Assembly (NCBI GenBank): GCA_000002445.1
Contig: CP000067.1
Coordinates: 1,152,001-1,216,000 of the forward strand
Source of the DNA: Trypanosoma brucei
Taxonomy: Eukaryota
Reading direction: 5' to 3'
DNA: 64,000 bases
Shown: positions 16,174 to 38,500 of the stretch, in pieces
How the letters are laid out: the number at the start of each line of letters is the position of its first letter
How positions within the stretch are numbered: position 1 is the first letter of the stretch
Translations under genes and position numbers: made by a program
Notes under the pieces: generated by a model
What the model saw: only the letters and a program-made list of their open reading frames with translations
What the model was told of the DNA's origin: nothing
Databases searched by the model: none

Positions 16174-19100
16174 TTAGCTGGCAGCGCTAACATTATCCAA
16201 GTCAATCAATTGCACGCCGCTACAATCACCTTCACCGCAGAAGGAATTGGAGGATGAAGAAAGCATTATAGCAGCTGCAACCCCCCCGAGTGAGAAGAAA
16301 CTTCCGCCCCTTTCAAAGGAAGGCACACTACCAGAGGTATTTCTCGTTCCAAAATCCATAACACAACCCACCTTCGCAGCAATCCGACGAGTGACACAGC
16401 GGCAACTGGCTTCATTCCAAGCATCCATACCTGGGGGTTTCTTAACACGCCAACGCTCACAAAAAGTTGCAAGCATCTTCTGTCGCTGGGTAGCAGGGAA
16501 TGTGCCAAGCAGAGCATCAATACAACCAGCAACTTGTTGGGCAGTGGCAGTTAAACCACGTTCAGGAGATCCCGACCCACTGGTGATACTACCAGTTACA
16601 TTATCTTCTTCCTCCTCAAATTCACGGTCAAGGCGCAGAGCAGCAAAGGTACGGCCAGGTACAGCATTCAACTGGTACATTTCCACAGGCTTCGGCACAC
16701 CACGTAGCGGCACATCACCCAAAGGCGTTACATTAAGTTGCTCACGCTCTTCACCACTCAGTGACAGGTATGTTGAGCGCGTCATCAGCACCTGACCACC
16801 GTTACCAACACTCTCCGTGCGTGCTGCCATGTTGGATGTGCGTCCATAATAGTCGTAACCTTTCGTTACTTCATCATGACGAATATCACACAATCCAGTA
16901 TGAATCCCCACACGTACACGCAACCCATTCCACAGTTGCCGATAAACCTCAGGGTCCAGGCTCGCAGTTGGTGGTGTGTAATCACTGTCATCTTCCGCAC
17001 GCTTTCGTTCGAATTCACGGTAAGACTCATCAAGCTCAGTGGTCTTCCAGTCATGGTTTAGAAAATCACGTTGCAAGTCACATGCGAGTTGTGCAGCAGC
17101 GAAGGGACTTTTACACGCAATCATAAAAGAGTCTCCAACAGTTTTCACTTCGTAGCACTCATACCGTGTGATGAGGGAGCGGATCAAACGGTGATGTGTT
17201 GCCACAAGGTCAGGCATTTGCTCAGGGTGTGCTGCCCACTGCGCTGTACTGCTCTCGATGTCAGTGAATATTAATGTTACGGGGTCTGTTGGTTCCTTGG
17301 GAGCATTATTATTGTCACGGGCGTTCCGGCGTGATGCCGATACAAGTACCAGAACCGTAACAAACAGTGCCAATACAACAACGCAGCTGACTGCAATAGC
17401 AGCAATGTGTCCTCTCTTAAGTCGAAACCCTTCTGTGTCACCGTATTTCATCGAGGGTGTGACGTGAGTCACCACAGGAGACACGGAAGGATTCAGAACA
17501 CGTGACATCGACCATACAGAAATATGCGTCGCACCATAGTTCACAGCACAGTGTTTCTCTTCAAATGAAGCCCCGTTAGTACACTTGTCATCAAAAGGAC
17601 CATATCGCATATCATCAACTGTAATGACAGATTGGCTGAAGATGGCGTCTACAAGTTCCTCCGGCGTTACATGTCCCATACGTTGCAGGATATTTATCAT
17701 TGCACGTGCGGTGACATATCCAAGTAATGACAATGGCTTCCACTTCGACTCATCTCGTACAACTCTGTGGAACTCACGTACCATATCGGATTTTGTGTTC
17801 TTATCTCCCCAATGTGGCAGATTCGTTGCGAATAGCAGACGGTCAGCAAATGGCTTGTCACGGAAGGCACTCACAAGTTCATCATAGAGTAACGCAACAT
17901 CAAAGAACGGGACAAAGATACGCACATTATGGTGTTTGCCAAGGTGAGAGAGGATTATGGGGATATCATCTGAGATGAGACCTGCAACTAATACCTCACC
18001 TGCAGTCGGTAGCTTGTCTCTCAAAGTAGAACCTTCACCACTCGCAACAAAGGAGCTTAATGACGATTCAAAGAAGTCAAGTGTTTTTTGCAACACTTTC
18101 CTAACTCCTCTCGTATCACCACTACGCACAATGGCATGCATCTTTCCAGCACCATTTTGTATGATATGCTCAACTATCACGAATAGTTGTTGCTCAAGTG
18201 TTGGTGACAGGTGGATCACATTCCTTCTGGGGTTACTCAGTTGTGGTGTGAGTGTTATGGGATCGATGAATGCCATACCCTTCGTCGACAGTAACGAATC
18301 ATCCACAACACCAAACACAGCAGTTACAACTCGCTTCTCCACTTCATCATACAGAGCTGTAGAAGTGTCATGAGATTTCGAGGATAGCCAGTGTAAAAAG
18401 AATCTATCAGAGTGACCAAGTTGACCCTTTCCAACAACATAAAAGGCACCATCGTATATTGCCTCTGCAGTACGCAGTGCCTTTGGGTCATCAGTTAGTT
18501 TAAACATGATGCCACTCAATGGGGCGTACAGCTGTGACAGGTCTCTATAGCAGCGAGATGAAGTAAGAGCTAATACACCTTCCTTCATAGGGTACAGACG
18601 GAGATCCTTTCCCATCTTCTTCATGTACACCACATTCCCACCCTGATTACATAAACATGATGCACCCCGCTCACCCGCCATACCACGGCACTCACCACCA
18701 AAGTCACCAACAACAATATCATCAATTACATAACGACGTTGATTGTAAAGTGATGTAATAAATGCATCCCTGCTAGTTAGCCATTCGCGACAACTCAGTG
18801 CTTGTTTCAATACCTCTCCAGCAATCCATCCGTCAACCATCAGCTCAGCTTCAGTGTCTTGCTCGGTGAAGTTGCTTTCGTCAACATTTAGGTTAACATT
18901 CCATTGTCCAGTGCCACTCAGAATATCTTTCTTTTCCTTCAGGTACTTTGCCATATCACCCTTGAATCGTTTGATTGCATCATAGCCATCATCCTTCGCA
19001 AGTGGATTAGTCCCAGTTATTATTATCTTATCAGGCACAAACCTGTCTCTACCCAATTCCTTTTCCCACTTATTCTCAATGACATATTGGAGTGTAGAGG

Positions 19101-19908
19101 GTATGAGCAAATATCCACCTTTTGTCCTTTCATCTTCTAATGATTTCATTAGGAATTTCTTCGTATCATTGATTGGAGAGCCAAATACAATCACACCCTG
19201 AGGTCGAGTATTTGCAAACTTATTCCACTCCGCACTGAAGCTACTGTCATCCGATTCCTTACCAATTTGACTCTTCAATGCAAAAACACCGCACAGTTTG
19301 CGATCCATCCGTGTTGTCAATTCCACAGCAAGCTCATATTCATCATCACCATAAGAAACATCTTTCAAGTACATGAAACCCAGCCGATGTAACCGTAACT
19401 GAGTGATAGCATAACGGAGAAGAGCAAGCATCTCAGCAGCGGGTGATGCTGTCAGGAAGTACAGATTAGGATTCCAACTGCGTACCTTACTGGATCCTGT
19501 GAGGGGTGAGAAACTAATCACATTCTTTTCTTTGAAATATTTCAAGAGACCTAGAGTGTTTTTATCACCCACAGGTCCCAGTATAACAGGGAGTTCCTTA
19601 CCATCATGGGTTGTCATGTGTTTCCCGAGATAGTCAGCATATTTAGAATCATCCATGGGGGGAACATATACCACTTCCACATTAGCACCCGACGGCGTGT
19701 TTCCGTTGGTAATGGATGCGTTGAAGCCTGCAGTAATAGGATCATATATCTTTGCTGAAATCTTGTTACTGTATAACATGTTGTATACCTTCACCTGTAT
19801 TTTATCATTTGCAAGTGATGATGCAGTCAGCACCTGTAGTAACAGAGAAAACACTAGGTAAGTGAATGCACCATCTCTAACATACAATTCACGCATGAAG
19901 GTAACCAT
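16174..19908 (-). CDS. GRESAG4: receptor-type adenylate cyclase, ESAG4/GRESAG4 family, array copy 1 (last copy in transcription order), 1244 aa
   Basis: Architecture is N-terminal signal peptide (MVTFMRELYVRDGAFTYLVFSLLLQVLTASSLA), an extracellular domain of about 840 aa, a single TM helix (HIAAIAVSCVVVLALFVTVLVLV, nt about 17340-17412) and a class III cyclase domain (nt about 16670-17270). The cyclase domain carries metal-binding motifs LIFTDIESST and KTVGDSFMIA plus GLRVRVGIHTG...GYDYYGRTSNMAARTES. These are hallmarks of trypanosome receptor adenylate cyclases. Confidence 0.95.
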   Translation of the reverse strand: MVTFMRELYVRDGAFTYLVFSLLLQVLTASSLANDKIQVKVYNMLYSNKISAKIYDPITAGFNASITNGNTPSGANVEVVYVPPMDDSKYADYLGKHMTTHDGKELPVILGPVGDKNTLGLLKYFKEKNVISFSPLTGSSKVRSWNPNLYFLTASPAAEMLALLRYAITQLRLHRLGFMYLKDVSYGDDEYELAVELTTRMDRKLCGVFALKSQIGKESDDSSFSAEWNKFANTRPQGVIVFGSPINDTKKFLMKSLEDERTKGGYLLIPSTLQYVIENKWEKELGRDRFVPDKIIITGTNPLAKDDGYDAIKRFKGDMAKYLKEKKDILSGTGQWNVNLNVDESNFTEQDTEAELMVDGWIAGEVLKQALSCREWLTSRDAFITSLYNQRRYVIDDIVVGDFGGECRGMAGERGASCLCNQGGNVVYMKKMGKDLRLYPMKEGVLALTSSRCYRDLSQLYAPLSGIMFKLTDDPKALRTAEAIYDGAFYVVGKGQLGHSDRFFLHWLSSKSHDTSTALYDEVEKRVVTAVFGVVDDSLLSTKGMAFIDPITLTPQLSNPRRNVIHLSPTLEQQLFVIVEHIIQNGAGKMHAIVRSGDTRGVRKVLQKTLDFFESSLSSFVASGEGSTLRDKLPTAGEVLVAGLISDDIPIILSHLGKHHNVRIFVPFFDVALLYDELVSAFRDKPFADRLLFATNLPHWGDKNTKSDMVREFHRVVRDESKWKPLSLLGYVTARAMINILQRMGHVTPEELVDAIFSQSVITVDDMRYGPFDDKCTNGASFEEKHCAVNYGATHISVWSMSRVLNPSVSPVVTHVTPSMKYGDTEGFRLKRGHIAAIAVSCVVVLALFVTVLVLVSASRRNARDNNNAPKEPTDPVTLIFTDIESSTAQWAAHPEQMPDLVATHHRLIRSLITRYECYEVKTVGDSFMIACKSPFAAAQLACDLQRDFLNHDWKTTELDESYREFERKRAEDDSDYTPPTASLDPEVYRQLWNGLRVRVGIHTGLCDIRHDEVTKGYDYYGRTSNMAARTESVGNGGQVLMTRSTYLSLSGEEREQLNVTPLGDVPLRGVPKPVEMYQLNAVPGRTFAALRLDREFEEEEDNVTGSITSGSGSPERGLTATAQQVAGCIDALLGTFPATQRQKMLATFCERWRVKKPPGMDAWNEASCRCVTRRIAAKVGCVMDFGTRNTSGSVPSFERGGSFFSLGGVAAAIMLSSSSNSFCGEGDCSGVQLIDLDNVSAAS
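16670..17270 (-). other. class III nucleotidyl cyclase catalytic domain of copy 1 (approximate bounds)
   Basis: Conserved motifs run from PVTLIFTDIESSTAQWAAHPE through KTVGDSFMIACKSP to GLRVRVGIHTGLCDIRHDEVTKGYDYYGRTSNMAARTESVGNGGQVLMT. Confidence 0.8.
17340..17412 (-). other. single transmembrane helix of cyclase copy 1 (HIAAIAVSCVVVLALFVTVLVLV); equivalent segment in every copy
   Basis: The reverse complement of aaccgtaacaaacagtgccaatacaacaacgcagctgactgcaatagcagcaatgtg translates to HIAAIAVSCVVVLALFVTV. The helix is flanked by basic residues (SRRNARDNNN) on the cytosolic side. Confidence 0.8.
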
Positions 19909-19924
19909 GATACTGGTAACTCAA

Positions 19925-19995
19925 CGTAATCCAACGTGAAAACTACAAGACAAAAAGGGAATAATAACAAAGTATTGGTACAGGATTAAGAGACT
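19925..19995 (-). promoter_or_regulatory. pyrimidine tract upstream of cyclase copy 1, repeated in every unit (about 24770-24840, 29620-29690, 34485-34555, 39335-39405, 43760-43830); candidate splice-acceptor region
   Basis: The plus strand reads aaaactacaagacaaaaagggaataataacaaagtattgg, so the minus strand reads ccaatactttgttattattccctttttgtcttgtagtttt 20-90 nt upstream of each ATG. Confidence 0.45.
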
Positions 19996-21024: not shown

Positions 21025-24000
21025 TTAGCTGGCAGCGCTAACATTATGAGGGTCAATCAATTGCACGGTACCGCGCCGTACCTCAACGCAGAAGGAACTT
21101 GAGGATGAAGCAAGCATTATAGCAGCTGCTCCTCCAGGTGAGAAGAGACTTCCGCCCCTTTCAAAAGAAGCCACACTACCAGAGGTATTTCTCGTTCCAA
21201 AATCCATAACACAACCCACCTTCGCAGCAATCCGACGAGTGACACAGCGGCAACTGGCTTCATTCCAAGCATCCATACCTGGGGGTTTCTTAACACGCCA
21301 ACGCTCACAAAAAGTTGCAAGCATCTTCTGTCGCTGGGTAGCAGGGAATGTGCCAAGCAGAGCATCAATACAACCAGCAACTTGTTGGGCAGTGGCATTT
21401 AAACCATGTGCAAGAGAGCTCGACTCACTGGTGATACTACCAGTTCCAATATCTTCTTCCTCCTCAAATTCACGGTCAAGGCGCAGAGCAGCAAAGGTAC
21501 GGCCAGGTACAGCATTCAACTGGTACATTTCCACAGGCTTCGGCACACCACGTAGCGGCACATCACCCAAAGGCGTTACATTAAGTTGCTCACGCTCTTC
21601 ACCACTCAGTGACAGGTATGTTGAGCGCGTCATCAGCACCTGACCACCGTTACCAACACTCTCCGTGCGTGCTGCCATGTTGGATGTGCGTCCATAATAG
21701 TCGTAACCTTTCGTTACTTCATCATGACGAATATCACACAATCCAGTATGAATCCCCACACGTACACGCAACCCATTCCACAGTTGCCGATAAACCTCAG
21801 GGTCCAGGCTCGCAGTTGGTGGTGTGTAATCACTGTCATCTTCCGCACGCTTTCGTTCGAATTCACGGTAAGACTCATCAAGCTCAGTGGTCTTCCAGTC
21901 ATGGTTTAGAAAATCACGTTGCAAGTCACATGCGAGTTGTGCAGCAGCGAAGGGACTTTTACACGCAATCATAAAAGAGTCTCCAACAGTTTTCACTTCG
22001 TAGCACTCATACCGTGTGATGAGGGAGCGGATCAAACGGTGATGTGTTGCCACAAGGTCAGGCATTTGCTCAGGGTGTGCTGCCCACTGCGCTGTACTGC
22101 TCTCGATGTCAGTGAATATTAATGTTACGGGGTCTGTTGGTTCCTTGGGAGCATTATTATTGTCACGGGCGTTCCGGCGTGATGCCGATACAAGTACCAG
22201 AACCGTAACAAACAGTGCCAATACAACAACGCAGCTGACTGCAATAGCAGCAATGTGTCCTCTCTTAAGTCGAAACCCTTCTGTGTCACCGTATTTCATC
22301 GAGGGTGTGACGTGAGTCACCACAGGAGACACGGAAGGATTCAGAACACGTGACATCGACCATACAGAAATATGCGTCGCACCATAGTTCACAGCACAGT
22401 GTTTCTCTTCAAATGAAGCCCCGTTAGTACACTTGTCATCAAAAGGACCATATCGCATATCATCAACTGTAATGACAGATTGGCTGAAGATGGCGTCTAC
22501 AAGTTCCTCCGGCGTTACATGTCCCATACGTTGCAGGATATTTATCATTGCACGTGCGGTGACATATCCAAGTAATGACAATGGCTTCCACTTCGACTCA
22601 TCTCGTACAACTCTGTGGAACTCACGTACCAAATCGGATTTTGTGTTCTTATCTCCCCAATGTGGCAGATTCGTTGCGAATAGCAGACGGTCAGCAAATG
22701 GCTTGTTACGGAAGGCACTCACAAGTTCATCATAGAGTAACGCAACATCAAAGAACGGGACAAAGATACGCACATTATGGTGTTTGCCAAGGTGAGAGAG
22801 GATTATGGGGATATCATCTGAGATGAGACCTGCAACCAACACCTCACCTGCAGTCGGTAGCTTGTCTCTCAAAGTAGAACCTTCACCACTCGCAACAAAG
22901 GAGCTTAATGACGCGTTAAAATATTTAAGAGTCTTCTGCAACACTTTCCTAACTCCTCTCGTATCACCACTACGCACAATGGCATGCATCTTTCCTGCAC
23001 CATTTTGTATGATATGCTCAACTATCACGAATAGTTGTTGCTCAAGTGTTGGTGACAGGTGGATCACATTCCTTCTGGGGTTACTCAGTTGTGGTGTGAG
23101 TGTTATAGGATCGATGAATGCCATACCCTTCGTGGACAGTAACGAATCATCCACAACACCAAACACAGCAGTTACAACTCGCTTCTCCACTTCATCATAC
23201 AGAGCTGTAGAAGTGTCATGAGATTTCGAGGATAGCCAGTGTAAAAAGAATCTATCAGAGTGACCAAGTTGACCCTTTCCAACAACATAAAAGGCACCAT
23301 CGTATATTGCCTCTGCAGTACGCAGTGCCTTTGGGTCATCAGTTAGTTTAAACATGATGCCACTCAATGGGGCGTACAGCTGTGACAGGTCTCTATAGCA
23401 GCGAGATGAAGTAAGAGCTAATACACCTTCCTTCATAGGGTACAGACGGAGATCCTTTCCCATCTTCTTATGTACACCACATTCCCACCCTGATTACATA
23501 AACATGATGCACCCCGCTCACCCGCCATACCACGGCACTCACCACCAAAGTCACCAACAACAATATCATCAATTACATAACGACGTTGATTGTAAAGTGA
23601 TGTAATAAATGCATCCCTGCTAGTTAGCCATTCGCGACAACTCAGTGCTTGTTTCAATACCTCTCCAGCAATCCATCCACTCACCATCAGCTCACCTTCA
23701 GTGTCTTGCTCGGTGAAGTTGCTTTCGTCAACATTTAAGTTAACATTCCAATTATCTTTCGAAAAATTATTTCCGTGTACCCTTAGGAACTTTGCCATAT
23801 CATCCCTAAAACGTTTGATTGCATCATAACCATCATCCTTCGCAAGTGGATTAGTCCCAGTTATTATTATCTTATCAGGCACAAACCTGTCTCTACCCAA
23901 TTCCTTTGCCCACTTATTCTTGATGACATATTGGAGTGTAGAGGGTATGAGCAAATATCCACCTTTTGTCCTGCGGTCATCTAATGATTTCATTAGAAAT

Positions 24001-24752
24001 CTTTTCGTATCAGGGATTGGAGAGCCAAATACAATCACACCCTGAGGTCGAGTATTTGCAAACTTATTCCACTCTGCACTGAAGCTACTGTCATCCGATT
24101 CCTTACCAATTTGACTCTTCAATGCAAAAACACCGCACAGTTTGCGATCCATCCGTGTTGTCAATTCCACAGCAAGCTCATATTCATCATCACCATAAGA
24201 AACATCTTTCAAGTACATGAAACCCAGCCGATGTAACCGTAACTGAGTGATAGCATAACGGAGAAGAGCAAGCATCTCAGCAGCGGGTGATGCTGTCAGG
24301 AAGTACAGATTAGGATTCCAACTGCGTACCTTACTGGATCCTGTGAAGGGTGAGAAACTAATCACATTCTTTTCTTTGAAATATTTCAAGAGACCTAGAG
24401 TGTTTTTATCACCCACAGGTCCCAGTATAACAGGGAGTTCCTTACCATCATGGGTTGTCATGTGTTTCCCGATATAGTCAGCATATTTAGAATCATCCAT
24501 GGGCGGAACATATACCACTTCCACATTAGCACCTGACGGCGGGTTTCCGTTGGTAATGGATGCGTTGAAGCCTGCAATAATAGGATCATATATCTTTGCT
24601 GAAATCTTGTTACTGTATAACATGTTGTATACCTTCACCTGTATTTTATCATTTGCAAGTGATGATGCAGTCAGCACCTGTAGTAACAGAGAAAACACTA
24701 GGTAAGTGAATGCGCCATCTCTAACATACAATTCACGCATGAAGGTAACCAT
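21025..24752 (-). pseudogene. GRESAG4: receptor-type adenylate cyclase GRESAG4-like, array copy 2, interrupted by a 1-bp frameshift (N-terminal 439-aa ORF 23433-24752 and C-terminal 812-aa ORF 21025-23463)
   Basis: At 23463-23470 the plus strand reads cttcttatgtac where all other copies read cttcttcatgtac, so one C is missing. Upstream of this point the protein ends ...GGNVVYIRRWERISVCTL*. The remaining 812 codons (MGKDLRLYPM...) are intact but in the -1 frame. Everything else is co-linear with the other copies. It is either a genuine pseudogene or an assembly or sequencing error in a collapsed repeat. Confidence 0.8.
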
Positions 24753-25871
24753 GATACTGGTAACTCAACGTAATCCAACGTGAAAACTACAAGACAAAAA
24801 GGGAATAATAACAAAGTATTGGTACAGGATTAAGAGACTGCATATGTACAGATATGTTGGATTGTGACACAATAAGAGTCCATATGATAATTGTATATAA
24901 GAGTGTAGGAAAGGGAACTATTATAATGGATAGCGTTATATAAACCATAACAGTGAGAAAGTAATTCAACATACATTTCCCTATACACACATCATTCATG
25001 TATCCGATACAAAAACAGAAAACATCACTAGGCACAAGAGTAAATGTGTAAATAGAGCATTATAATATCATAGACTGGATGCCAGTAACAAAAACAAAGC
25101 ACACTAGCAGTCACAGTTAACATTCAACTGGCAACAGCATGGCAGACATTGTTCAGTTTCATATTCCTTGGTTGTCTAAAGGTAAAATAGAAAGAATGGG
25201 TCTGAGGGAATATGAGGAAAGTTACAATAAGCATATGAAAACATGCAGGAAGCTATGCACAGGTATTAGATGTTGTAAATAGTTGTCGGCAGCAGTTTCA
25301 TTTGAGAAGTACCTCTCACAAGCCAAAATCTCCAAAGGAGAAATGTAAAAAGGGATTGAAGCAAACACGGAAAATAAACACCAGATGATAGTTTTACTTC
25401 ATGGCAACCCCCACTTCACGGGTTTCACCTTCTTATCGTACACATCTTTAGGTGTATGAACACAACTGATAACAACACATTAGAGGTAGAGAACCTCACT
25501 TGACCACAGCACACACAAACGGCAATTTAAGCTTATTGAACTAATAAATATATTATTTAAAAGAGTGAGATAATCAAAAGTGGTGTAGGTGCTCACATCC
25601 AATTCCACACCAAAAACAAGAAGATTTGCGATCTTCAAACACAGCTATCAAAAGGAGAGTACCCATGTCAGAAATGGAAAGCGTCTTTATCTACAGAGAT
25701 ATTTTAAGCACCCACCATATGAGGAGATTCTTGTATTTACAAAAGTAAAAAAAAAATTAATGGCCACTTTATACAAAATAAATCTAAAGAAAAGATTGCA
25801 CACATGATGTAAAACAACTTATTCATTCACTTCAATAGCAAAGCGCACATACAGCAATGTTACGGGGAATA

Positions 25872-28800
25872 TTAGCTGGCAGCGCTAACATTTTCCTGTT
25901 CAATCAATTGCACGGTACCACAGCGTCCCTCAACGCAGGAGGAACTTGAGGATGAAGAAAGCGTTACGGCAGCTGCTCCTCGGGGAGAGAAGAGACTTCC
26001 GCCCCTTTCAAAAGATCCACCGCTACCAGAGGTATTTCTCGTTCCAAAATCCATAACACAACCCACCTTCGCAGCAATCCGACGAGTGACACAGCGGCAA
26101 CTGGCTTCATTCCAAGCATCCATACCTGGGGGTTTCTTAACACGCCAACGCTCACAAAAAGTTGCAAGCATCTTCTGTCGCTGGGTAGCAGGGAATGTGC
26201 CAAGCAGAGCATCAATACAACCAGCAACTTGTTGGGCAGTGGCATTTAAACCATGTGCGAAAGATCCCGACTCACTGGTGATACTACCAGTTACATTATC
26301 TTCTTCCTCCTCAGCTTCACGGTCAAGGCGCAGAGCAGCAAAGGTACGGCCAGGTACAGCATTCAACTGGTACATTTCCACAGGCTTCGGCACACCACGT
26401 AGCGGCACATCACCCAAAGGCGTTACATTAAGTTGCTCACGCTCTTCACCACTCAGTGACAGGTATGTTGAGCGCGTCATCAGCACCTGACCACCGTTAC
26501 CAACACTCTCCGTGCGTGCTGCCATGTTGGATGTGCGTCCATAATAGTCGTAACCTTTCGTTACTTCATCATGACGAATATCACACAATCCAGTATGAAT
26601 CCCCACACGTACACGCAACCCATTCCACAGTTGCCGATAAACCTCAGGGTCCAGGCTCGCAGTTGGTGGTGTGTAATCACTGTCATCTTCCGCACGCTTT
26701 CGTTCGAATTCACGGTAAGACTCATCAAGCTCAGTGGTCTTCCAGTCATGGTTTAGAAAATCACGTTGCAAGTCACATGCGAGTTGTGCAGCAGCGAAGG
26801 GACTTTTACACGCAATCATAAAAGAGTCTCCAACAGTTTTCACTTCGTAGCACTCATACCGTGTGATGAGGGAGCGGATCAAACGGTGATGTGTTGCCAC
26901 AAGGTCAGGCATTTGCTCAGGGTGTGCTGCCCACTGCGCTGTACTGCTCTCGATATCAGTGAATATTAATGTTACGGGGTCTGTTGGTTCCTTGGGAGCA
27001 TTATTATTGTCACGGGCGTTCCGGCGTGATGATCTTATGACAAGTACCAGAACCGTAACAAACAGTGCCAATACAACAACGCAGCTGACTGCAATAGCAG
27101 CAATGTGTCCTCTCTTAAGTCGAAACCCTTCTGTGTCACCGTATTTCATCGAGGGTGTGACGTGAGTCACCACAGGAGACACGGAAGGATTCAGGACACG
27201 TGACATCGACCATACAGAAATATGCGTCGCACCATAGTTCACAGCACACTGCTTCTTACCGAACAAACTTTTTTTAGTACACTTGTCATCAAAAGGACCA
27301 TATCGCATATCATCAACTGTAATGACAGATTGGCTGAAGATGGCGTCTACAAGCTCCTCCGGTGTTACATGTCCCATACGTTGCAGGACATTTATCATTG
27401 CACGTGCGGCGACATATCCAAGTAATGACAATGGCTTCCACTTCGACTCATCTCGTACAACTCTGTGGAACTCACGTACCATATCGGATTTTGTGTTCTT
27501 ATCTCCCCAATGTGGCAGATTCGTTGCGAATAGCAGACGGTCAGCAAATGGCTTGTCACGGAAGGCACTCACAAGTTCATCATAGAGTAACGCAACATCA
27601 AAGAACGGGACGAAGATACGCACATTATGGTGTTTGCCAAGGTGAGAGAGGATTATGGGGATATCATCTGAGATGAGACCTGCAACTAATACCTCACCTG
27701 CAGTCGGTAGCTTGTCTCTCAAAGTAGAACCTTCACCACTCGCAACAAAGGAGCTTAATGACGCGTTAAAATATTTAAGAGTCTTCTGCAACACTTTCCT
27801 AACTCCTCTCGTATCACCACTACGCACAATGGCATGCATCTTTCCTGCACCATTTTGTATGATATGCTCAACTATCACGAATAGTTGTTGCTCAAGTGTT
27901 GGTGACAGGTGGATCACATTCCTTCTGGGGTTACTCAGTTGTGGTGTGAGTGTTATAGGATCGATGAATGCCATACCCTTCGTCGACAGTAACGAATCAT
28001 CCACAACACCAAACACAGCAGTTACAACTCGCTTCTCCACTTCATCATACAGAGCTGTAGAAGTGTCATGAGATTTCGAGGATAGCCAGTGTAAAAAGAA
28101 TCTATCAGAGTGACCAAGTTGACCCTTTCCAACAACATAAAAGGCACCATCGTATATTGCCTCTGCAGTACGCAGTGCCTTTGGGTCATCAGTTAGTTTA
28201 AACATGATGCCACTCAATGGGGCGTACAGCTGTGACAGGTCTCGATAGCAGCGAGATGAAGTAAGAGCTAATACACCTTCCTTCATAGGGTACAGACGGA
28301 GATCCTTTCCCATCTTCTTCATGTACACCACATTCCCACCCTGATTACATAAACATGATGCACCCCGCTCACCCGCCATACCACGGCACTCACCACCAAA
28401 GTCACCAACAACAATATCATCAATTACATAACGACGTTGATTGTAAAGTGATGTAATAAATGCATCCCTGCTAGTTAGCCATTCGCGACAACTCAGTGCT
28501 TGTTTCAATACCTCTCCAGCAATCCATCCGTCAACCATCAGCTCAGCTTCAGTGTCTTGCTCGGTGAAGTTGCTTTCGTCAACATTTAAGTTAACATTCC
28601 AATTATCTTTCGAAAAATTATTTCTGTTAAGTTTCAGGTACTTTGCCATATCATCCTTGAATCGTTTGATTGCATCATAGCCATCATCCTTCGCAAGTGG
28701 ATTAGTCCCAGTTATTATTATCTTATCAGGCACAAACCTGTCTCTACCCAATTCCTTTGCCCACTTGTTCTTGATGACATATTGGAGTGTAGAGGGTATG

Positions 28801-29603
28801 AGCAAATATCCACCTTTTGTCCTTTCATCTTCTAATGATTTCATTAGGAATTTCTTCGTATCAGGGATTGGAGAGCCAAATACAATCACACCCTGAGGTC
28901 GAGCATTTGCAAACTTATTCCACTCCGCACTGAAGCTACTGTCATCCGATTCCTTACCAATTTGACTCTTCAATGCAAAAACACCGCACAGTTTGCGATC
29001 CATCCGTGTTGTCAATTCCACAGCAAGCTTATATTCATCATCACCATAAGAAACATCTTTCAAGTACATGAAACCCAGCCGATGTAACCGTAACTGAGTG
29101 ATAGCATAACGGAGAAGAGCAAGCATCTCAGCAGCGGGTGATGCTGTCAGGAAGTACAGATTAGGATTCCAACTGCGTACCTTACTGGATCCTGTGAAGG
29201 GTGAGAAACTAGTCACATTCTTTTCTTTGAAATATTTCAAGAGACCTAGAGTGTTTTTATCACCCACAGGTCCCAGTATAACAGGGAGTTCCTTACCATC
29301 ATTGGTTGTCATGTGTTTCCCGAGATAGTCAGCATATTTAGAATCATCCATGGGCGGAACATATACCACTTCCACATTAGCACCTGACGGCGGGTTTCCG
29401 TTGGTAATGGATGCGTTGAAGCCTGCAATAATAGGATCATATATCTTTGCTGAAATCTTGTTACTGTATAACATGTTGTATACCTTCACCTGTATTTTAT
29501 CATTTGCAAGTGATGATGCAGTCAGCACCTGTAGTAACAGAGAAAACACTAGGTAAGTGACTGCGCCATCTCTAACATACAATTCACGCATGAAGGTAAC
29601 CAT
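25872..29603 (-). CDS. GRESAG4: receptor-type adenylate cyclase GRESAG4-like, array copy 3, 1243 aa
   Basis: Full-length and co-linear with copy 1. It has the same signal peptide, TM helix and cyclase motifs. It differs in patches, for example KYLKLNRNNFSKDNW, KCTKKSLFGKKQC and LDREAEEEEDN. Confidence 0.95.
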   Translation of the reverse strand: MVTFMRELYVRDGAVTYLVFSLLLQVLTASSLANDKIQVKVYNMLYSNKISAKIYDPIIAGFNASITNGNPPSGANVEVVYVPPMDDSKYADYLGKHMTTNDGKELPVILGPVGDKNTLGLLKYFKEKNVTSFSPFTGSSKVRSWNPNLYFLTASPAAEMLALLRYAITQLRLHRLGFMYLKDVSYGDDEYKLAVELTTRMDRKLCGVFALKSQIGKESDDSSFSAEWNKFANARPQGVIVFGSPIPDTKKFLMKSLEDERTKGGYLLIPSTLQYVIKNKWAKELGRDRFVPDKIIITGTNPLAKDDGYDAIKRFKDDMAKYLKLNRNNFSKDNWNVNLNVDESNFTEQDTEAELMVDGWIAGEVLKQALSCREWLTSRDAFITSLYNQRRYVIDDIVVGDFGGECRGMAGERGASCLCNQGGNVVYMKKMGKDLRLYPMKEGVLALTSSRCYRDLSQLYAPLSGIMFKLTDDPKALRTAEAIYDGAFYVVGKGQLGHSDRFFLHWLSSKSHDTSTALYDEVEKRVVTAVFGVVDDSLLSTKGMAFIDPITLTPQLSNPRRNVIHLSPTLEQQLFVIVEHIIQNGAGKMHAIVRSGDTRGVRKVLQKTLKYFNASLSSFVASGEGSTLRDKLPTAGEVLVAGLISDDIPIILSHLGKHHNVRIFVPFFDVALLYDELVSAFRDKPFADRLLFATNLPHWGDKNTKSDMVREFHRVVRDESKWKPLSLLGYVAARAMINVLQRMGHVTPEELVDAIFSQSVITVDDMRYGPFDDKCTKKSLFGKKQCAVNYGATHISVWSMSRVLNPSVSPVVTHVTPSMKYGDTEGFRLKRGHIAAIAVSCVVVLALFVTVLVLVIRSSRRNARDNNNAPKEPTDPVTLIFTDIESSTAQWAAHPEQMPDLVATHHRLIRSLITRYECYEVKTVGDSFMIACKSPFAAAQLACDLQRDFLNHDWKTTELDESYREFERKRAEDDSDYTPPTASLDPEVYRQLWNGLRVRVGIHTGLCDIRHDEVTKGYDYYGRTSNMAARTESVGNGGQVLMTRSTYLSLSGEEREQLNVTPLGDVPLRGVPKPVEMYQLNAVPGRTFAALRLDREAEEEEDNVTGSITSESGSFAHGLNATAQQVAGCIDALLGTFPATQRQKMLATFCERWRVKKPPGMDAWNEASCRCVTRRIAAKVGCVMDFGTRNTSGSGGSFERGGSLFSPRGAAAVTLSSSSSSSCVEGRCGTVQLIEQENVSAAS

Positions 29604-30722: not shown

Positions 30723-33700
30723 TTAGCTGGCAGCGCTAACATTTTCCTGTTCAATCAATTGCACGGTACCACAGCGTCCCTCAACGCAGGAGGAACTTGA
30801 GGATGAAGCAAGCATTATAGCAGCTGCTCCTCCAGGTGAGAAGAGACTTCCGCCCCTTTCAAAAGAAGCCACACTACCAGAGGTATTTCTCGTTCCAAAA
30901 TCCATAACACAACCCACCTTCGCAGCAATCCGACGAGTGACACAGCGGCAACTGGCTTCATTCCAAGCATCCATACCTGGGGGTTTCTTAACACGCCAAC
31001 GCTCACAAAAAGTTGCAAGCATCTTCTGTCGCTGGGTAGCAGGGAATGTGCCAAGCAGAGCATCAATGCAACCAGCAACTTGTTGGGCAGTGGCAGTTAA
31101 ACCACGTTCAGGAGATCCCGACCCACTGGTGATACTACCAGTTACATTATCTTCTTCCTCCTCAAATTCACGGTCAAGGCGCAGAGCAGCAAAGGTACGG
31201 CCAGGTACAGCATTCAACTGGTACATTTCCACAGGCTTCGGCACACCACGTAGCGGCACATCACCCAAAGGCGTTACATTAATTTGCTCACGCTCTTTAC
31301 CACTCAGTGACAGGTATGTTGAGCGCGTCATCAGCACCTGACCACCGTTACCAACACTCTCCGTGCGTGCTGCCATGTTGGATGTGCGTCCATAATAGTC
31401 GTAACCTTTCGTTACTTCATCATGACGAATATCACACAATCCAGTATGAATCCCCACACGTACACGCAACCCATTCCACAGTTGCCGATAAACCTCAGGG
31501 TCCAGGCTCGCAGTTGGTGGTGTGTAATCACTGTCATCTTCCGCACGCTTTCGTTCGAATTCACGGTAAGACTCATCAAGCTCAGTGGTCTTCCAGTCAT
31601 GGTTTAGAAAATCACGTTGCAAGTCACATGCGAGTTGTGCAGCAGCGAAGGGACTTTTACACGCAATCATAAAAGAGTCTCCAACAGTTTTCACTTCGTA
31701 GCACTCATACCGTGTGATGAGGGAGCGGATCAAACGGTGATGTGTTGCCACAAGGTCAGGCATTTGCTCAGGGTGTGCTGCCCACTGCGCTGTACTGCTC
31801 TCGATATCAGTGAATATTAATGTTACGGGGTCTGTTGGTTCCTTGGGAGCATTATTATTGTCACGGGCGTTCCGGCGTGATGATCTTATGACAAGTACCA
31901 GAACCGTAACAAACAGTGCCAATACAACAACGCAGCTGACTGCTACAGCAGCAATATGCTTATATATTAGTCGAATCCATTTTGGTTCATCATACTTCAT
32001 CGAGGGTGTGACGTGAGTCACCACAGGAGACACGGAAGGATTCAGAACACGTGACATCGACCATACAGAAATATGCGTCGCACCATAGTTCACAGCACAG
32101 TGTTTCTCTTCAAATGAAGCTCCGTTAGTACACTTGTCATCAAAAGGACCATATCGCATATCATCAACTGTAATGACAGATTGGCTGAAGATGGCGTCTA
32201 CAAGCTCCTCCGGCGTTACATGTCCCATACGTTGCAGGACATTTATCATTGCACGTGCGGTGACATATCCAAGTAATGACAATGGCTTCCACTTCGACTC
32301 ATCTCGTACAACTCTGTGGAACTCACGTACCAAATCGGATTCCGTGTTCTTATCTCCCCAATGTGGCAGATTCGTTGCGAATAGCAGACGGTCAGCAAAT
32401 GGCTTGTCACGGAAGGCACTCACAAGTTCATCATAGAGTAACGCAACATCAAAGAACGGGACAAAGATACGCACATTATGGTGTTTGCCAAGGTGAGAGA
32501 GGATTATGGGGATATCATCTGAGATGAGACCTGCAACTAATACCTCACCTGCAGTCGGTAGCTTGTCTCTCAAAGTAGAACCTTCACCACTCGCAACAAA
32601 GGAGCTTAATGACGCAAAAAAGTAGTCAAGTGTTTTGTTCAGCATCTCTCCAATATCTTTCGTATCACCACTACGCACAATGGCATGCATCTTTCCAGCA
32701 CCATTTTGTATGATATGCTCAACTATCACGAATAGTTGTTGCTCAAGTGTTGGTGACAGGTGGATCACATTCCTTCTGGGGTTACTCAGTTGTGGTGTGA
32801 GTGTTATGGGATCGATGAATGCCATACCCTTCGTCGACAGTAACGAATCATCCACAACACCAAACACAGCAGTTACAACTCGCTTCTCCACTTCATCATA
32901 CAGAGCTGTAGAAGTATCATGAGATTTCGAGGATAGCCAGTGTAAAAAGAATCTATCAGAGTGACCAAGTTGACCCTTTCCAACAACATAAAAGGCACCA
33001 TCGTATATTGCCTCTGCAGTACGCAGTGCCTTTGGGTCATCAGTTAGTTTAAACATGATGCCACTCAATGGGGCGTACAGCTGTGACAGGTCTCTATAGC
33101 AGCGAGATGAAGTAAGAGCTAATACACCTTCCTTCATAGGGTACAGACGGAGATCCTTTCCCATCTTCTTCATGTACACCACATTCCCACCCTGATTACA
33201 TAAACATGATGCACCCCGCTCACCCGCCATACCACGGCACTCACCACCAAAGTCACCAACAACAATATCATCAATTACATAACGACGTTGATTGTAAAGT
33301 GATGTAATAAATGCATCCCTGCTAGTCAGCCATTCGCGACAACTCAGTGCTTGTTTCAATACCTCTCCAGCAATCCATCCGTCAACCATCAGCTCAGCTT
33401 CAGTGTCTTGCTCGGTGAAGTTGCTTTCGTCAACATTTAGGTTAACATTCCATTGTCCAGTGCCACTCAGAATATCTTTCTTTTCCTTCAGGTACTTTGC
33501 CATATCACCCTTGAATCGTTTGATTGCATCATAGCCATCATCCTTCGCAAGTGGATTAGTCCCAGTTATTATTATCTTATCAGGCACAAACCTGTCTCTA
33601 CCCAATTCCTTTTCCCACTTATTCTCAATGACATATTGGAGTGTAGAGGGTATGAGCAAATATCCACCTTTTGTCCTTTCATCTTCTAATGATTTCATTA

Positions 33701-34466
33701 GGAATTTCTTCGTATCATTGATTGGAGAGCCAAATACAATCACACCCTGAGGTCGAGTATTTGCAAACTTATCCCACTCCGCACTGAAGCTACTGTCATC
33801 CGATTCCTTACCAATTTGACTCTTCAATGCAAAAACACCGCACAGTTTGCGATCCATCCGTGTTGTCAATTCCACAGCAAGCTTATATTCATCATCACCA
33901 TAAGAAACATCTTTCAAGTACATGAAACCCAGCCGATGTAACCGTAACTGAGTGATAGCATAACGGAGAAGAGCAAGCATCTCAGCAGCGGGTGATGCTG
34001 TCAGGAAGTACAGATTAGGATTCCAACTGCGTACCTTACTGGATCCTGTGAAGGGTGAGAAACTAATCACATTCTTTTCTTTGAAATATTTCAAGAGACC
34101 TAGAGTGTTTTTATCACCCACAGGTCCCAGTATAACAGGGAGTTCCTCACCATTATTGTCGTTGCTAAAGGACGTTTCGCTATTTAAATGACCAACATAA
34201 TCTGAATCATTCTTCGGTGGAACATATACCACTTCCACATTAGCACCTGACGGCGGGTTCCCGTTGGTAATGGATGCGTTGAAGCCTGCAATAATAGGAT
34301 CATATATCTTTGCTGAAATCTTGTTACTGTATAACATGTTGTATACCTTCACCTGTATTTTATCATTTGCAAGTGATGATGCAGTCAGCACCTGTAGTAA
34401 CAGAGAAAACACTAGGTAAGTGACTGCGCCATCTCTAACATACAATTCACGCATGAAGGTAACCAT
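30723..34466 (-). CDS. GRESAG4: receptor-type adenylate cyclase GRESAG4-like, array copy 4, 1247 aa
   Basis: Full-length paralogue. It carries a unique patch with a 4-aa insertion near the N-terminus (VPPKNDSDYVGHLNSETSFSNDNNGEELPV), and the patches TKDIGEMLNKTLDYFFAS and PSMKYDEPKWIRLIYKHIAAVAVS next to the TM helix. Confidence 0.95.
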   Translation of the reverse strand: MVTFMRELYVRDGAVTYLVFSLLLQVLTASSLANDKIQVKVYNMLYSNKISAKIYDPIIAGFNASITNGNPPSGANVEVVYVPPKNDSDYVGHLNSETSFSNDNNGEELPVILGPVGDKNTLGLLKYFKEKNVISFSPFTGSSKVRSWNPNLYFLTASPAAEMLALLRYAITQLRLHRLGFMYLKDVSYGDDEYKLAVELTTRMDRKLCGVFALKSQIGKESDDSSFSAEWDKFANTRPQGVIVFGSPINDTKKFLMKSLEDERTKGGYLLIPSTLQYVIENKWEKELGRDRFVPDKIIITGTNPLAKDDGYDAIKRFKGDMAKYLKEKKDILSGTGQWNVNLNVDESNFTEQDTEAELMVDGWIAGEVLKQALSCREWLTSRDAFITSLYNQRRYVIDDIVVGDFGGECRGMAGERGASCLCNQGGNVVYMKKMGKDLRLYPMKEGVLALTSSRCYRDLSQLYAPLSGIMFKLTDDPKALRTAEAIYDGAFYVVGKGQLGHSDRFFLHWLSSKSHDTSTALYDEVEKRVVTAVFGVVDDSLLSTKGMAFIDPITLTPQLSNPRRNVIHLSPTLEQQLFVIVEHIIQNGAGKMHAIVRSGDTKDIGEMLNKTLDYFFASLSSFVASGEGSTLRDKLPTAGEVLVAGLISDDIPIILSHLGKHHNVRIFVPFFDVALLYDELVSAFRDKPFADRLLFATNLPHWGDKNTESDLVREFHRVVRDESKWKPLSLLGYVTARAMINVLQRMGHVTPEELVDAIFSQSVITVDDMRYGPFDDKCTNGASFEEKHCAVNYGATHISVWSMSRVLNPSVSPVVTHVTPSMKYDEPKWIRLIYKHIAAVAVSCVVVLALFVTVLVLVIRSSRRNARDNNNAPKEPTDPVTLIFTDIESSTAQWAAHPEQMPDLVATHHRLIRSLITRYECYEVKTVGDSFMIACKSPFAAAQLACDLQRDFLNHDWKTTELDESYREFERKRAEDDSDYTPPTASLDPEVYRQLWNGLRVRVGIHTGLCDIRHDEVTKGYDYYGRTSNMAARTESVGNGGQVLMTRSTYLSLSGKEREQINVTPLGDVPLRGVPKPVEMYQLNAVPGRTFAALRLDREFEEEEDNVTGSITSGSGSPERGLTATAQQVAGCIDALLGTFPATQRQKMLATFCERWRVKKPPGMDAWNEASCRCVTRRIAAKVGCVMDFGTRNTSGSVASFERGGSLFSPGGAAAIMLASSSSSSCVEGRCGTVQLIEQENVSAAS

Positions 34467-35585: not shown

Positions 35586-38500
35586 TTAGCTGGCAGCGCT
35601 AACATTTTCCAAGTCAATCAATTGTACGCCGCTACAATCACCTTCACCGCAGAAGGAACTTGAGGATGAAGCAAGCATTATAGCAGCTGCTCCTCCAGGT
35701 GAGAAGAGACTTCCGCCCCTTTCAAAAGATCCACCGCTACCAGAGGTATTTCTCGTTCCAAAATCCATAACACAACCCACCTTCGCAGCAATCCGACGAG
35801 TGACACAGCGGCAACTGGCTTCATTCCAAGCATCCATACCTGGGGGTTTCTTAACACGCCAACGCTCACAAAAAGTTGCAAGCATCTTCTGTCGCTGGGT
35901 AGCAGGGAATGTGCCAAGCAGAGCATCAATACAACCAGCAACTTGTTGGGCAGTGGCAGTTAAACCATGTGCGAAAGATCCCGACCCACTGGTGATACTA
36001 CCAGTTACATTATCTTCTTCCTCCTCAGCTTCACGGTCAAGGCGCAGAGCAGCAAAGGTACGGCCAGGTACAGCATTCAACTGGTACATTTCCACAGGCT
36101 TCGGCACACCACGTAGCGGCACATCACCCAAAGGCGTTACATTAAGTTGCTCACGCTCTTCACCACTCAGTGACAGGTATGTTGAGCGCGTCATCAGCAC
36201 CTGACCACCGTTACCAACACTCTCCGTGCGTGCTGCCATGTTGGATGTGCGTCCATAATAGTCGTAACCTTTCGTTACTTCATCATGACGAATATCACAC
36301 AATCCAGTATGAATCCCCACACGTACACGCAACCCATTCCACAGTTGCCGATAAACCTCAGGGTCCAGGCTCGCAGTTGGTGGTGTGTAATCACTGTCAT
36401 CTTCCGCACGCTTTCGTTCGAATTCACGGTAAGACTCATCAAGCTCAGTGGTCTTCCAGTCATGGTTTAGAAAATCACGTTGCAAGTCACATGCGAGTTG
36501 TGCAGCAGCGAAGGGACTTTTACACGCAATCATAAAAGAGTCTCCAACAGTTTTCACTTCGTAGCACTCATACCGTGTGATGAGGGAGCGGATCAAACGG
36601 TGATGTGTTGCCACAAGGTCAGGCATTTGCTCAGGGTGTGCTGCCCACTGCGCTGTACTGCTCTCGATATCAGTGAATATTAATGTTACGGGGTCTGTTG
36701 GTTCCTTGGGAGCATTATTATTGTCACGGGCGTTCCGGCGTGATGATCTTATGACAAGTACCAGAACCGTAACAAACAGTGCCAATACAACAGCGCAGCT
36801 GACTGCAATAGCAGCAATGTGTCCTCTCTTAAGTCGAAACCCTTCTGTGTCACCGTATTTCATCGAGGGTGTGACGTGAGTCACCACAGGAGACACGAAA
36901 GGATTCAGGACACGTGACATCGACCATACAGAAATATGCGTCGCACCATAGTTCACAGCACAGTGTTTCTCTTCAAATGAAGCTCCGTTAGTACACTTGT
37001 CATCAAAAGGACCATATCGCATATCATCAACTGTAATGACAGATTGGCTGAAGATGGCGTCTACAAGCTCCTCCGGCGTTACATGTCCCATACGTTGCAG
37101 GACATTTATCATTGCACGTGCGGTGACATATCCAAGTAATGACAATGGCTTCCACTTCGACTCATCTCGTACAACTCTGTGGAACTCACGTACCAAATCG
37201 GATTCCGTGTTCTTATCTCCCCAATGTGGCAGATTCGTTGCGAATAGCAGACGGTCAGCAAATGGCTTGTCACGGAAGGCACTCACAAGTTCATCATAGA
37301 GTAACGCAACATCAAAGAACGGGACAAAGATACGCACATTATGGTGTTTGCCAAGGTGAGAGAGGATTATGGGGATATCATCTGAGATGAGACCTGCAAC
37401 CAACACCTCACCTGCAGTCGGTAGCTTGTCTCTCAAAGTAGAACCTTCACCACTCGCAACAAAGGAGCTTAATGACGCGTTAAAGATATCAAGTGTTTTT
37501 TGCAACACTTTCCTAACTCCTCTCGTATCACCACTACGCACAATGGCATGCATCTTTCCTGCACCATTTTGTATGATATGCTCAACTATCACGAATAGTT
37601 GTTGCTCAAGTGTTGGTGACAGGTGGATCACATTCCTTCTGGGGTTACTCAGTTGTGGTGTGAGTGTTATAGGATCGATGAATGCCATACCCTTCGTCGA
37701 CAGTAACGAATCATCCACAACACCAAACACAGCAGTTACAACTCGCTTCTCCACTTCATCATACAGAGCTGTAGAAGTATCATGAGATTTCGAGGATAGC
37801 CAGTGTAAAAAGAATCTATCAGAGTGACCAAGTTGACCCTTTCCAACAACATAAAAGGCACCATCGTATATTGCCTCTGCAGTACGCAGTGCCTTTGGGT
37901 CATCAGTTAGTTTAAACATGATGCCACTCAATGGGGCGTACAGCTGTGACAGATCTCTATAGCAGCGAGATGAAGTAAGAGCTAATACACCTTCCTTCAT
38001 AGGGTACAGACGATGATCCTCTTCCATCTTCTTCATGTACACCACATTCCCACCCTGATTACATAAACATGATGCACCCCGCTCACCCGCCATACCACGG
38101 CACTCACCACCAAAGTCACCAACAACAATATCATCAATTACATAACGACGTTGATTGTAAAGTGATGTAATAAATGCATCCCTGCTAGTTAGCCATTCGC
38201 GACAACTCAGTGCTTGTTTCAATACCTCTCCAGCAATCCATCCACTCACCATCAGCTCACCTTCAGTGTCTTGCTCGGTGAAGTTGCTTTCGTCAACATT
38301 TAAGTTAACATTCCAATTATCTTTCGAAAAATTATTTCTGTTAAGTTTCAGGTACTTTGCCATATCATCCTTGGATCGTTTGATTGCATCATAGCCATCA
38401 TCCTTCGCAAGTGGATTAGTCCCAGTTATTATTATCTTATCAGGCACAAACCTGTCTCTACCCAATTCCTTTGCCCACTTATTCTCAATGACATATTGGA

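What the first reader, a model, noticed from the sequence alone, without database searches (positions are those of the whole stretch)
23433..23475. Single-base deletion splits cyclase copy 2 into a 439-aa ectodomain ORF and an out-of-frame 812-aa remainder
The plus strand reads cttcttatgtac at 23463-23474, where copy 1 at 18615-18627 reads cttcttcatgtac. Copy 1 and the other intact copies translate as ...VVYMKKMGKDLRLYPM... at this point. In copy 2 the frame shifts, giving ...VVYIRRWERISVCTL* followed by an intact but out-of-frame cyclase half. This is either a young pseudogene inside an otherwise conserved array, or a consensus error in a collapsed repeat. If real, it would make a secreted or truncated ectodomain-only product.
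Basis: seen in the sequence. Interest (0 to 1): 0.5.

Follow-up and report, generated by a model that had tools for sequence, protein, structure and literature searches.

The report
Frameshifted adenylate cyclase pseudogene, trypanosome array
One of seven tandem receptor adenylate cyclase genes on Trypanosoma brucei chromosome 4 carries a single missing base that breaks its reading frame, which is an ordinary, apparently already-catalogued pseudogene and not a new biological feature.

Summary
The window is T. brucei brucei TREU927 chromosome 4 (about 1,152,001-1,216,000). It holds the seven-copy GRESAG4 receptor adenylate cyclase array Tb927.4.4410-4470 on the minus strand. Copy 2 (21025-24752, Tb927.4.4420 by position and numbering) lacks one base between 23469 and 23470, the G of an ATG codon on the coding strand. 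The six paralogues and nine copies from T. b. gambiense and T. equiperdum all have that base. It is the only frame-breaking change in copy 2. Translation gives 427 native residues, 12 frameshifted residues and a stop. The 812-aa remainder is intact, and its transmembrane and catalytic segments are 100% identical to copy 1. The first ORF covers only the N-terminal of two binding-protein-like ectodomain modules. The remainder holds the second module, the membrane helix and the cyclase. Copy 2 has no deposited protein and is skipped in every protein-coding gene list I could read, which fits an annotated pseudogene. A collapsed repeat is unlikely, because copy 2 differs from every other copy at 95 or more coding positions. 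A base-call error or a single-haplotype allele cannot be excluded. I judge it a young, strain-specific pseudogene. Interest is low.

The parts
21025..24752 (-). GRESAG4 copy 2, a frameshifted receptor-type adenylate cyclase gene. It is Tb927.4.4420 by position and numbering (chr4 about 1,173,025-1,176,752).
   Evidence: Window offset of 1,152,000. No deposited protein.
23469..23470 (-). Site of the 1-nt deletion. The G of an ATG codon (Met428 equivalent) is missing between these two bases.
23433..24752 (-). First ORF of 439 aa: 427 native residues, then 12 frameshifted residues (IRRWERISVCTL), then TGA at 23433-23435.
24654..24713 (-). Hydrophobic N-terminal segment (aa 14-33), the presumed signal peptide.
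   Evidence: hydropathy. It is identical to the same segment of copy 1.
23856..24281 (-). Core of the N-terminal PBP-like ectodomain module (PF25495, aa 158-299 of the first ORF).
   Evidence: E = 5e-57. Model and LIVBP-type fold matches.
21025..23463 (-). Out-of-frame remainder of 812 aa, which begins at an internal ATG. In the native frame it is intact. 47 ATG triplets lie upstream of it in the copy-2 coding sequence.
22291..23379 (-). Second PBP-like ectodomain module (PF25493, aa 29-391 of the remainder).
   Evidence: E = 1e-141.
22171..22269 (-). Transmembrane helix (aa 399-431 of the remainder), identical to that of copy 1.
21514..22146 (-). Class III cyclase catalytic domain (PF00211), with no amino-acid difference from copy 1.
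   Evidence: Copy 1 matches PDB 1FX2 and 1FX4.
23460..23624 (-). Block around the deletion that is invariant among copies 1-5. Pairwise identical tracts to copy 2 are 545 nt (c1), 285 nt (c3), 410 nt (c4) and 321 nt (c5).
24753..25871 (-). Spacer of 1119 nt upstream of copy 2. It has the same length as the neighbouring spacers, and its last ~150 nt are identical to them, including the polypyrimidine tract and AG before the ATG.
16174..19908 (-). Intact copy 1 (Tb927.4.4410, 1244 aa).
25872..29603 (-). Intact copy 3 (Tb927.4.4430, 1243 aa).
30723..34466 (-). Intact copy 4 (1247 aa).
35586..39317 (-). Intact copy 5 (1243 aa).
39876..43742 (-). Intact copy 6 (1288 aa), from the divergent subfamily at about 91% nucleotide identity.
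44301..48116 (-). Intact copy 7 (1271 aa), from the divergent subfamily.

Best explanation
Copy 2 of the chromosome-4 GRESAG4 array of T. brucei TREU927 is a very young pseudogene, specific to this strain or to one haplotype. It was made by loss of a single G from an ATG codon. Shown: the deletion is there, it is the only frame-breaking change, it is absent from all 15 compared copies, and the gene has no deposited protein. Inferred: the spacer and splice-acceptor region match those of the neighbours, and trypanosome genes are transcribed polycistronically. The copy is therefore probably still transcribed, trans-spliced and polyadenylated. Ribosomes would then read 427 native codons (signal peptide plus the first binding-protein-like module), then 12 wrong codons, and stop. 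The second ectodomain module, the membrane anchor and the catalytic domain would not be made, so the copy contributes no cyclase activity. The fragment would be either degraded or secreted. The six intact paralogues make the loss harmless. The lesion lies in a tract identical to every neighbour, so a single gene-conversion event could erase it.
For: Deletion and ORF structure. Identity of the locus: (Tb927.4.4410 at chr4 1168174-1171908, Tb927.4.4430 starting at 1177872, and seven annotated copies in Table 2 of PMC2854126). Protein accessions run XP_844591 for copy 1 and XP_844592 for copy 3, with nothing for copy 2, and neither ORF product is on record. Tb927.4.4420 is missing from a proteomics protein group that lists the other six and from a gene list that jumps from 4410 to 4430. 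Copy 2 is a distinct copy: it has at least 95 coding mismatches to every other copy, its own mosaic of patches shared with c1, c3, c5, c6 and c7, and a normal spacer. The lesion looks young: there are no other lesions, the TM and catalytic domains are 100% identical to copy 1, only 5 substitutions are private to copy 2, and the deletion is absent from DAL972 and T. equiperdum. Background: 21% of T. b. brucei receptor cyclases are truncated (PMC7719234), and the reference carries 743 annotated pseudogenes (PMC4210626). Recombination in this very array was reported, with PHI p<0.001 (PMC2854126).
Against: No reads, second TREU927 assembly or RNA data could be examined, so the base itself is unverified. 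I never saw the pseudogene annotation itself. It is inferred from the ID gap and from the absence of a protein. A gene with one lesion and no other decay is also what a sequencing error would look like. The broken copies in the DAL972 and T. equiperdum arrays lie at other positions, and those in the T. equiperdum copy look like assembly errors, which shows this array is error-prone in assemblies. Of the private substitutions, 4 of 5 are non-synonymous and lie downstream of the frameshift. This is only a weak hint of relaxed constraint, and it sits in the naturally variable C-terminal tail.
Confidence: 0.7

Rival explanations
1. The deletion is a base-call or consensus error in the finished reference. 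Copy 2 is really an intact eighth... that is, a seventh functional cyclase of about 1243 aa.
For: Apart from this one base the gene is pristine. Its catalytic and TM segments are identical to copy 1, and it has only 5 private substitutions. The site sits in a block of 285-545 nt identical to every other copy, where reads are hardest to assign to one copy. Other assemblies of this array also show isolated 1-nt indels. The two in the T. equiperdum copy shorten GGG and CC runs, and the neighbouring gene there is fragmented as well.
Against: The missing base is not in a homopolymer (ATGAAG becomes ATAAG). The reference chromosome is a finished clone-based sequence, and the annotators left the gene without a protein instead of correcting it. 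Sanger reads of 600-800 nt would span from the site into copy-specific patches on at least one side (nearest differences). From general knowledge of finished-sequence error rates, an error in a 3.7-kb gene is several-fold less likely than a real lesion, given that about a fifth of family members are truncated.
Confidence: 0.22
2. The deletion is real but heterozygous. The diploid TREU927 genome carries one broken and one intact allele of copy 2, and the haploid reference happened to take the broken one.
For: T. brucei is diploid and the reference is a haploid consensus (general knowledge). The youth of the lesion is compatible with a variant that is not fixed.
Against: No data here bear on allele state. 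This is a refinement of the best explanation and not a true alternative, and its probability is counted inside the 0.7 given there.
Confidence: 0.2
3. Collapsed-repeat artefact. Copy 2 is a chimeric consensus of two or more near-identical units merged by the assembler, and the indel is a by-product of that merge.
For: Tandem units of 4.85 kb at 96-98% identity are a classic setting for collapse.
Against: Copy 2 carries long, coherent tracts that each match a single other copy, plus private sites. There are no ambiguous positions, and the unit and spacer lengths are normal at 4847-4851 and 1119 nt. Seven copies agree with the published count.
Confidence: 0.03
4. The frameshift is bypassed or exploited. 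Possible routes are programmed -1 ribosomal frameshifting, internal initiation on the 812-aa ORF, or use of the 427-aa module as a secreted binding protein.
For: The break falls between the two ectodomain modules, after the Cys-rich loop at 402-424. The first module could therefore in principle fold on its own. It keeps its signal peptide.
Against: There is no X XXY YYZ slippery heptamer in the zero frame between the deletion and the stop (read directly from the sequence printed). 47 upstream ATGs precede the second ORF. The sequence around the site is the same as in intact copies, so nothing here has been selected for bypass. The lesion is not conserved in any other strain. The model is of only moderate confidence (pLDDT 65.7).
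Confidence: 0.03

Closest known systems
GRESAG4 / ESAG4 receptor-type adenylate cyclases of Trypanosoma brucei (array Tb927.4.4410-4470; 'GRESAG 4.4' group)
   Same: Copy 2 is 96-97% identical in nucleotides to copies 1 and 3-5. It has the same domain order: signal peptide, PF25495 module, PF25493 module, one TM helix and a PF00211 cyclase domain. It has the same spacer and the same orientation. The catalytic domain of copy 1 matches the solved GRESAG4.1 and 4.3 structures 1FX2 and 1FX4 at E of about 1e-122.
   Different: The reading frame is broken after codon 427, so no full-length receptor can be made. No protein is deposited for it.
Truncated or pseudogenised receptor cyclase genes reported across salivarian trypanosomes (Durante et al. 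2020, PMC7719234; Salmon 2018, PMC6027212)
   Same: It is a member of an expanded, recombining surface-receptor family in which about 21% of T. b. brucei genes are truncated and in which pseudogenes lacking either the binding or the cyclase domain are common.
   Different: Here nothing has been deleted. A single base is missing and both halves are still intact, so this is the earliest possible stage of pseudogenisation, or an error.
Mosaic tandem arrays evolving by gene conversion (Jackson et al. 2010, PMC2854126, array 28)
   Same: Copy 2 is a patchwork of tracts shared with different neighbours, including the divergent copies 6 and 7. The published analysis of this array found significant recombination.
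   Different: The paper does not discuss the frameshift. Whether the broken copy still acts as donor or recipient in conversion is inferred, not shown.
Frame-disrupted copies of the same array in T. b. gambiense DAL972 and T. equiperdum
   Same: One or two copies per assembly carry small indels: DAL972 CBH10754 and CBH10755 ('LOW QUALITY PROTEIN'), and the fourth T. equiperdum copy, which is split into 467 and 803 aa.
   Different: The positions and contexts differ, and none is orthologous to the TREU927 lesion. The T. equiperdum indels shorten GGG and CC runs, and the neighbouring gene is also broken.

Membership tests
Trypanosomatid receptor-type adenylate cyclase (GRESAG4/ESAG4) | Class III adenylate/guanylate cyclase catalytic domain on the cytoplasmic side | tested here: met
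   PF00211, E = 4e-43, in the 812-aa remainder. There is no amino-acid difference from copy 1 across it. Copy 1 matches 1FX2 and 1FX4.
Trypanosomatid receptor-type adenylate cyclase (GRESAG4/ESAG4) | Large extracellular region built of periplasmic-binding-protein-like modules | tested here: met
   PF25495 in the first ORF and PF25493 in the remainder. The model of copy 1 matches LIVBP-type binding proteins and taste-receptor VFT domains.
Trypanosomatid receptor-type adenylate cyclase (GRESAG4/ESAG4) | N-terminal signal sequence and a single transmembrane helix between the ectodomain and the cyclase | tested here: met
   Hydropathy peaks at aa 14-33 and aa 830-862 (copy 1 numbering). Both are present in the copy 2 pieces.
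Trypanosomatid receptor-type adenylate cyclase (GRESAG4/ESAG4) | One uninterrupted ORF joining all domains, as needed for a functional member | tested here: not met
   The 1-nt deletion at 23469/23470 gives a stop after 439 codons.
Trypanosomatid receptor-type adenylate cyclase (GRESAG4/ESAG4) | GRESAG as opposed to ESAG: chromosome-internal location, not a telomeric VSG expression site | tested here: met
   The array is flanked by housekeeping genes: H+-PPase, an LRR protein and an ABC transporter. It lies at chr4 1.17 Mb of 1.59 Mb.
Unitary or young pseudogene | Disabling lesion relative to intact close paralogues or orthologues | tested here: met
   It is the only non-3n indel, and all 15 compared copies have the base.
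Unitary or young pseudogene | Lesion confirmed in independent reads, clones or assemblies of the same strain | not testable with these tools
   No read data were available. The exact-product look-ups were empty. The homology searches were blind to close relatives, because the control failed.
Unitary or young pseudogene | Signs of relaxed constraint, such as extra lesions or an excess of non-synonymous private changes | tested here: inconclusive
   There are 5 private substitutions (1 synonymous, 4 non-synonymous, the latter all in the variable C-tail) against 5 in copy 1 (3 synonymous, 2 non-synonymous). There are no further lesions.
Unitary or young pseudogene | Treated as a pseudogene in the reference annotation | tested here: inconclusive
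   The evidence is indirect only. Protein accessions skip it, and ID 4420 is absent from lists that hold 4410 and 4430-4470. The annotation record itself was not readable.

The most novel reading that the evidence does not exclude
The break falls between the two ectodomain modules and the signal peptide is kept. Copy 2 could therefore be expressed as a soluble, secreted 427-residue ligand-binding module, acting as a decoy or scavenger for the still unknown cyclase ligand, instead of being a dead gene.
Probability: 0.03. Interest if true: 0.5.

Novelty: already known. Interest (0 to 1): 0.08.

Why it matters
It matters very little biologically. The parasite has about 80 such cyclases, and six intact copies sit in the same array. 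The practical value is for curation. The site is a clean test case for whether a reference-genome pseudogene is real. It also illustrates the earliest step of gene death in a recombining surface-receptor array. Only if the truncated binding module proved to be secreted would it bear on the open question of what these receptors sense.

Tried and rejected
(1) Independent sightings of the frameshifted product. Exact look-ups of both ORF products found nothing. A 60-aa query across the junction also found nothing. That search also failed to find the intact 48 residues known to be in the collection, so the tool is blind to close relatives and the negative result says nothing. Likewise, the 439-aa search returned only fragments of at most 749 aa and none of the full-length paralogues.

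(2) Look-up of copy 3 to see the called genes around copy 2 in the source record. It was reported as not on record.

(3) Direct proof of the pseudogene annotation. 'Tb927.4.4420' occurs in no main text and in none of the supplements searched. Only its absence beside its neighbours was informative.

(4) An orthologue of copy 2 in other strains. None exists one-to-one. The nearest copies in DAL972 and T. equiperdum still differ at 97-133 positions.

(5) Programmed frameshifting. No slippery heptamer is present (sequence). Mitochondrial-type U-insertion editing cannot supply a G and does not act on nuclear mRNAs (general knowledge).

(6) Rfam and tandem-repeat scans of the window found nothing.

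Full report
**What the window is.** Six of the seven long minus-strand ORFs between 16 kb and 48 kb are exact matches to deposited proteins of Trypanosoma brucei brucei TREU927. [quoted passage not shown] Supplementary tables place Tb927.4.4410 at Tb927_04_v5.1:1168174-1171908(-) with 1244 aa, and Tb927.4.4430 with a start at 1177872. These match window copies 1 (16174-19908) and 3 (25872-29603) with an offset of 1,152,000.

Flanking genes fit this placement. They are an H+-pyrophosphatase (3027-5507), a 1744-aa protein (9944-15178) that is Tb927.4.4400 by position and numbering, a gene PMC2212663 lists as 'leucine rich repeat', and an ABC transporter (57090-62492). Jackson et al. 2010 list this array (sample ID Tb927.4.4470) as having seven annotated copies and significant recombination. 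By position and numbering, copy 2 is therefore Tb927.4.4420.

**The observation.**
- The + strand of copy 2 reads ...CCCATCTTCTTATGTAC..., where copies 1, 3, 4 and 7 read ...CCCATCTTCTTCATGTAC....
The motif occupies 23464-23475, and the missing C falls between 23469 and 23470.
- On the coding strand, the G of an ATG is lost.
- In an alignment of all seven coding sequences, this is the only indel in copy 2 that is not a multiple of three.
- The resulting ORFs are 23433-24752 (439 aa) and 21025-23463 (812 aa), and they overlap by 31 nt.
- The first ORF is native for 427 residues, then reads IRRWERISVCTL and stops.

**What the two pieces contain.**
- Pfam places PF25495 (the first binding-protein-like module) in the 439-aa ORF.
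- The remainder contains PF25493 (the second module), a strong hydrophobic helix and PF00211 (the cyclase).
- An AlphaFold model of copy 1 residues 1-870 has only moderate confidence (pLDDT 65.7). It shows module 1 at about 37-400, a low-confidence Cys-rich loop at 402-424, a hairpin at 426-447 and module 2 from 464. Its best structural matches are LIVBP-type binding proteins and Venus-flytrap domains.
- The break therefore lies between the two ectodomain modules. The first ORF is half an ectodomain, not 'the ectodomain'. The remainder is more than 'the cyclase half'.
- Only the catalytic domain of this family has solved structures, 1FX2 and 1FX4.

**Is copy 2 a genuine, separately resolved copy?** Yes, on the sequence evidence.
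- It differs from every other copy at 95 or more coding positions.
- It is a coherent mosaic. It has tracts shared only with copy 7 (alignment columns 686-788), with copies 5 and 6 (950-1088), with copy 3 (1661-1854) and with copy 1 (2164-3321), plus a few private sites.
- Its upstream spacer is 1119 nt, as for its neighbours. The last ~150 nt, including the polypyrimidine tract and AG before the ATG, are identical to theirs.

This argues against a collapsed-repeat consensus. It also implies (inference) that the copy is transcribed and processed like the others.

**How old is the lesion?**
- Apart from the deletion, there is no decay. The transmembrane and catalytic segments have no amino-acid difference from copy 1.
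- Only five substitutions are private to copy 2 among 16 compared sequences. One is synonymous and four are non-synonymous, and all four lie in the variable C-terminal tail. Copy 1 also has five (3 synonymous, 2 non-synonymous).
- I fetched the orthologous arrays of T. b. gambiense DAL972 (L002) and T. equiperdum (L001, L003, L004). None of their nine copies has this deletion.
- No copy in those arrays is a one-to-one orthologue of copy 2, as expected under concerted evolution.
- The site lies in a tract identical to each neighbour over 285-545 nt. Any conversion across it would repair it.

The lesion is therefore either very recent or not real.

**Real or error?** I could not reach reads.
- The two ORF products are in no collection.
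- Protein accessions run XP_844591 for copy 1 and XP_844592 for copy 3.
- Tb927.4.4420 is missing from lists that contain all six neighbours.

This is the pattern expected for a gene annotated as a pseudogene, although I never saw the annotation itself.

In favour of a real lesion:
- The context is not a homopolymer.
- The chromosome is a finished clone-based sequence.
- Truncated cyclase genes make up about a fifth of the family.

In favour of an error:
- The gene is otherwise pristine.
- The other two assemblies also show isolated small indels in this array. The T. equiperdum indels shorten GGG and CC runs and sit beside another fragmented gene, which fits assembly error.

I put about 0.7 on a real lesion, possibly heterozygous, and about 0.22 on a base-call error. 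The remainder goes to a collapse artefact or a functional bypass.

**Mechanism.**
- Shown: the frame breaks after codon 427, and the downstream domains are out of frame.
- Inferred from established trypanosome biology (polycistronic transcription, trans-splicing, cap-dependent scanning): the mRNA is made, and translation yields a 439-residue fragment that carries a signal peptide. No cyclase is produced from this copy. The 812-aa ORF is not initiated, because 47 ATGs precede it.
- No slippery heptamer exists for -1 frameshifting between the deletion and the stop (sequence).
- The six intact paralogues make the loss neutral.

**Verdict.** The feature is an ordinary single-lesion pseudogene, or a reference error, in a well-studied gene array, and it is apparently already handled as such in the reference annotation. 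Novelty: already known. Interest: low.

Noticed in passing
L003:14848-18574 (lesions at about 16143 and 16148); L003:19568-21004: The fourth cyclase copy of the T. equiperdum array is split into 467-aa and 803-aa ORFs by two 1-nt deletions (GGG to GG and CC to C). They lie only 10-20 nt downstream of the TREU927 deletion site. The next gene, the LRR protein orthologue, is also fragmented, so these are probably assembly indel errors and not a shared hotspot.
   Followed up: partly
L002:299-4026 (about 3229) and L002:5144-8883 (about 6141-6154): Two of the four DAL972 copies are frame-disrupted. One has a 1-nt deletion in ACACACC, and the other has a non-3n indel patch in the variable region. 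These are the proteins flagged 'LOW QUALITY PROTEIN' in RefSeq. Every assembly examined has at least one broken copy in this array, each at a different place.
   Followed up: partly
window 23440-23462 and the equivalent sites in copies 5 (about 38011) and 6: Immediately 3' of the deletion there is a dimorphic patch. Copies 1-4 and 7 read ATGGGAAAGGATCTCCG (MGKDLR), and copies 5 and 6 read ATGGAAGAGGATCATCG (MEEDHR). Recombinant forms occur in DAL972 (MEEDLR) and T. equiperdum (MGKDHR), so conversion breakpoints fall within about 10 nt here.
   Followed up: partly
window 23973-24075: Copy 2 shares a run of variants (alignment columns 686-788) only with the divergent copy 7. This indicates sequence exchange between the two subfamilies of the array, and it gives a handy copy-2-specific anchor for PCR or read mapping.
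   Followed up: no
window 19909-21024, 24753-25871, 29604-30722, 34467-35585 versus 39318-39875, 43743-44300: Spacers between copies 1-5 are 1116-1119 nt, but only 558 nt between copies 5/6 and 6/7. Within the long spacers, a block of about 90 nt (roughly positions 110-195) exists in two very different versions, one in c1/c2 and one in c3/c4.
   Followed up: no
window 16247-16795, 21239-21643, 26086-26490 and similar: Antisense (+ strand) ORFs of 100-180 aa recur at the same place in every cyclase copy. They are most simply a by-product of repeating the same sequence, and nothing suggests that they are genes.
   Followed up: no
window 48117-51923 and 5508-9943: There are two long stretches without ORFs of 200 aa or more, and 48-50 kb has low GC (0.386). 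No Rfam family or tandem repeat was found anywhere in the window.
   Followed up: partly
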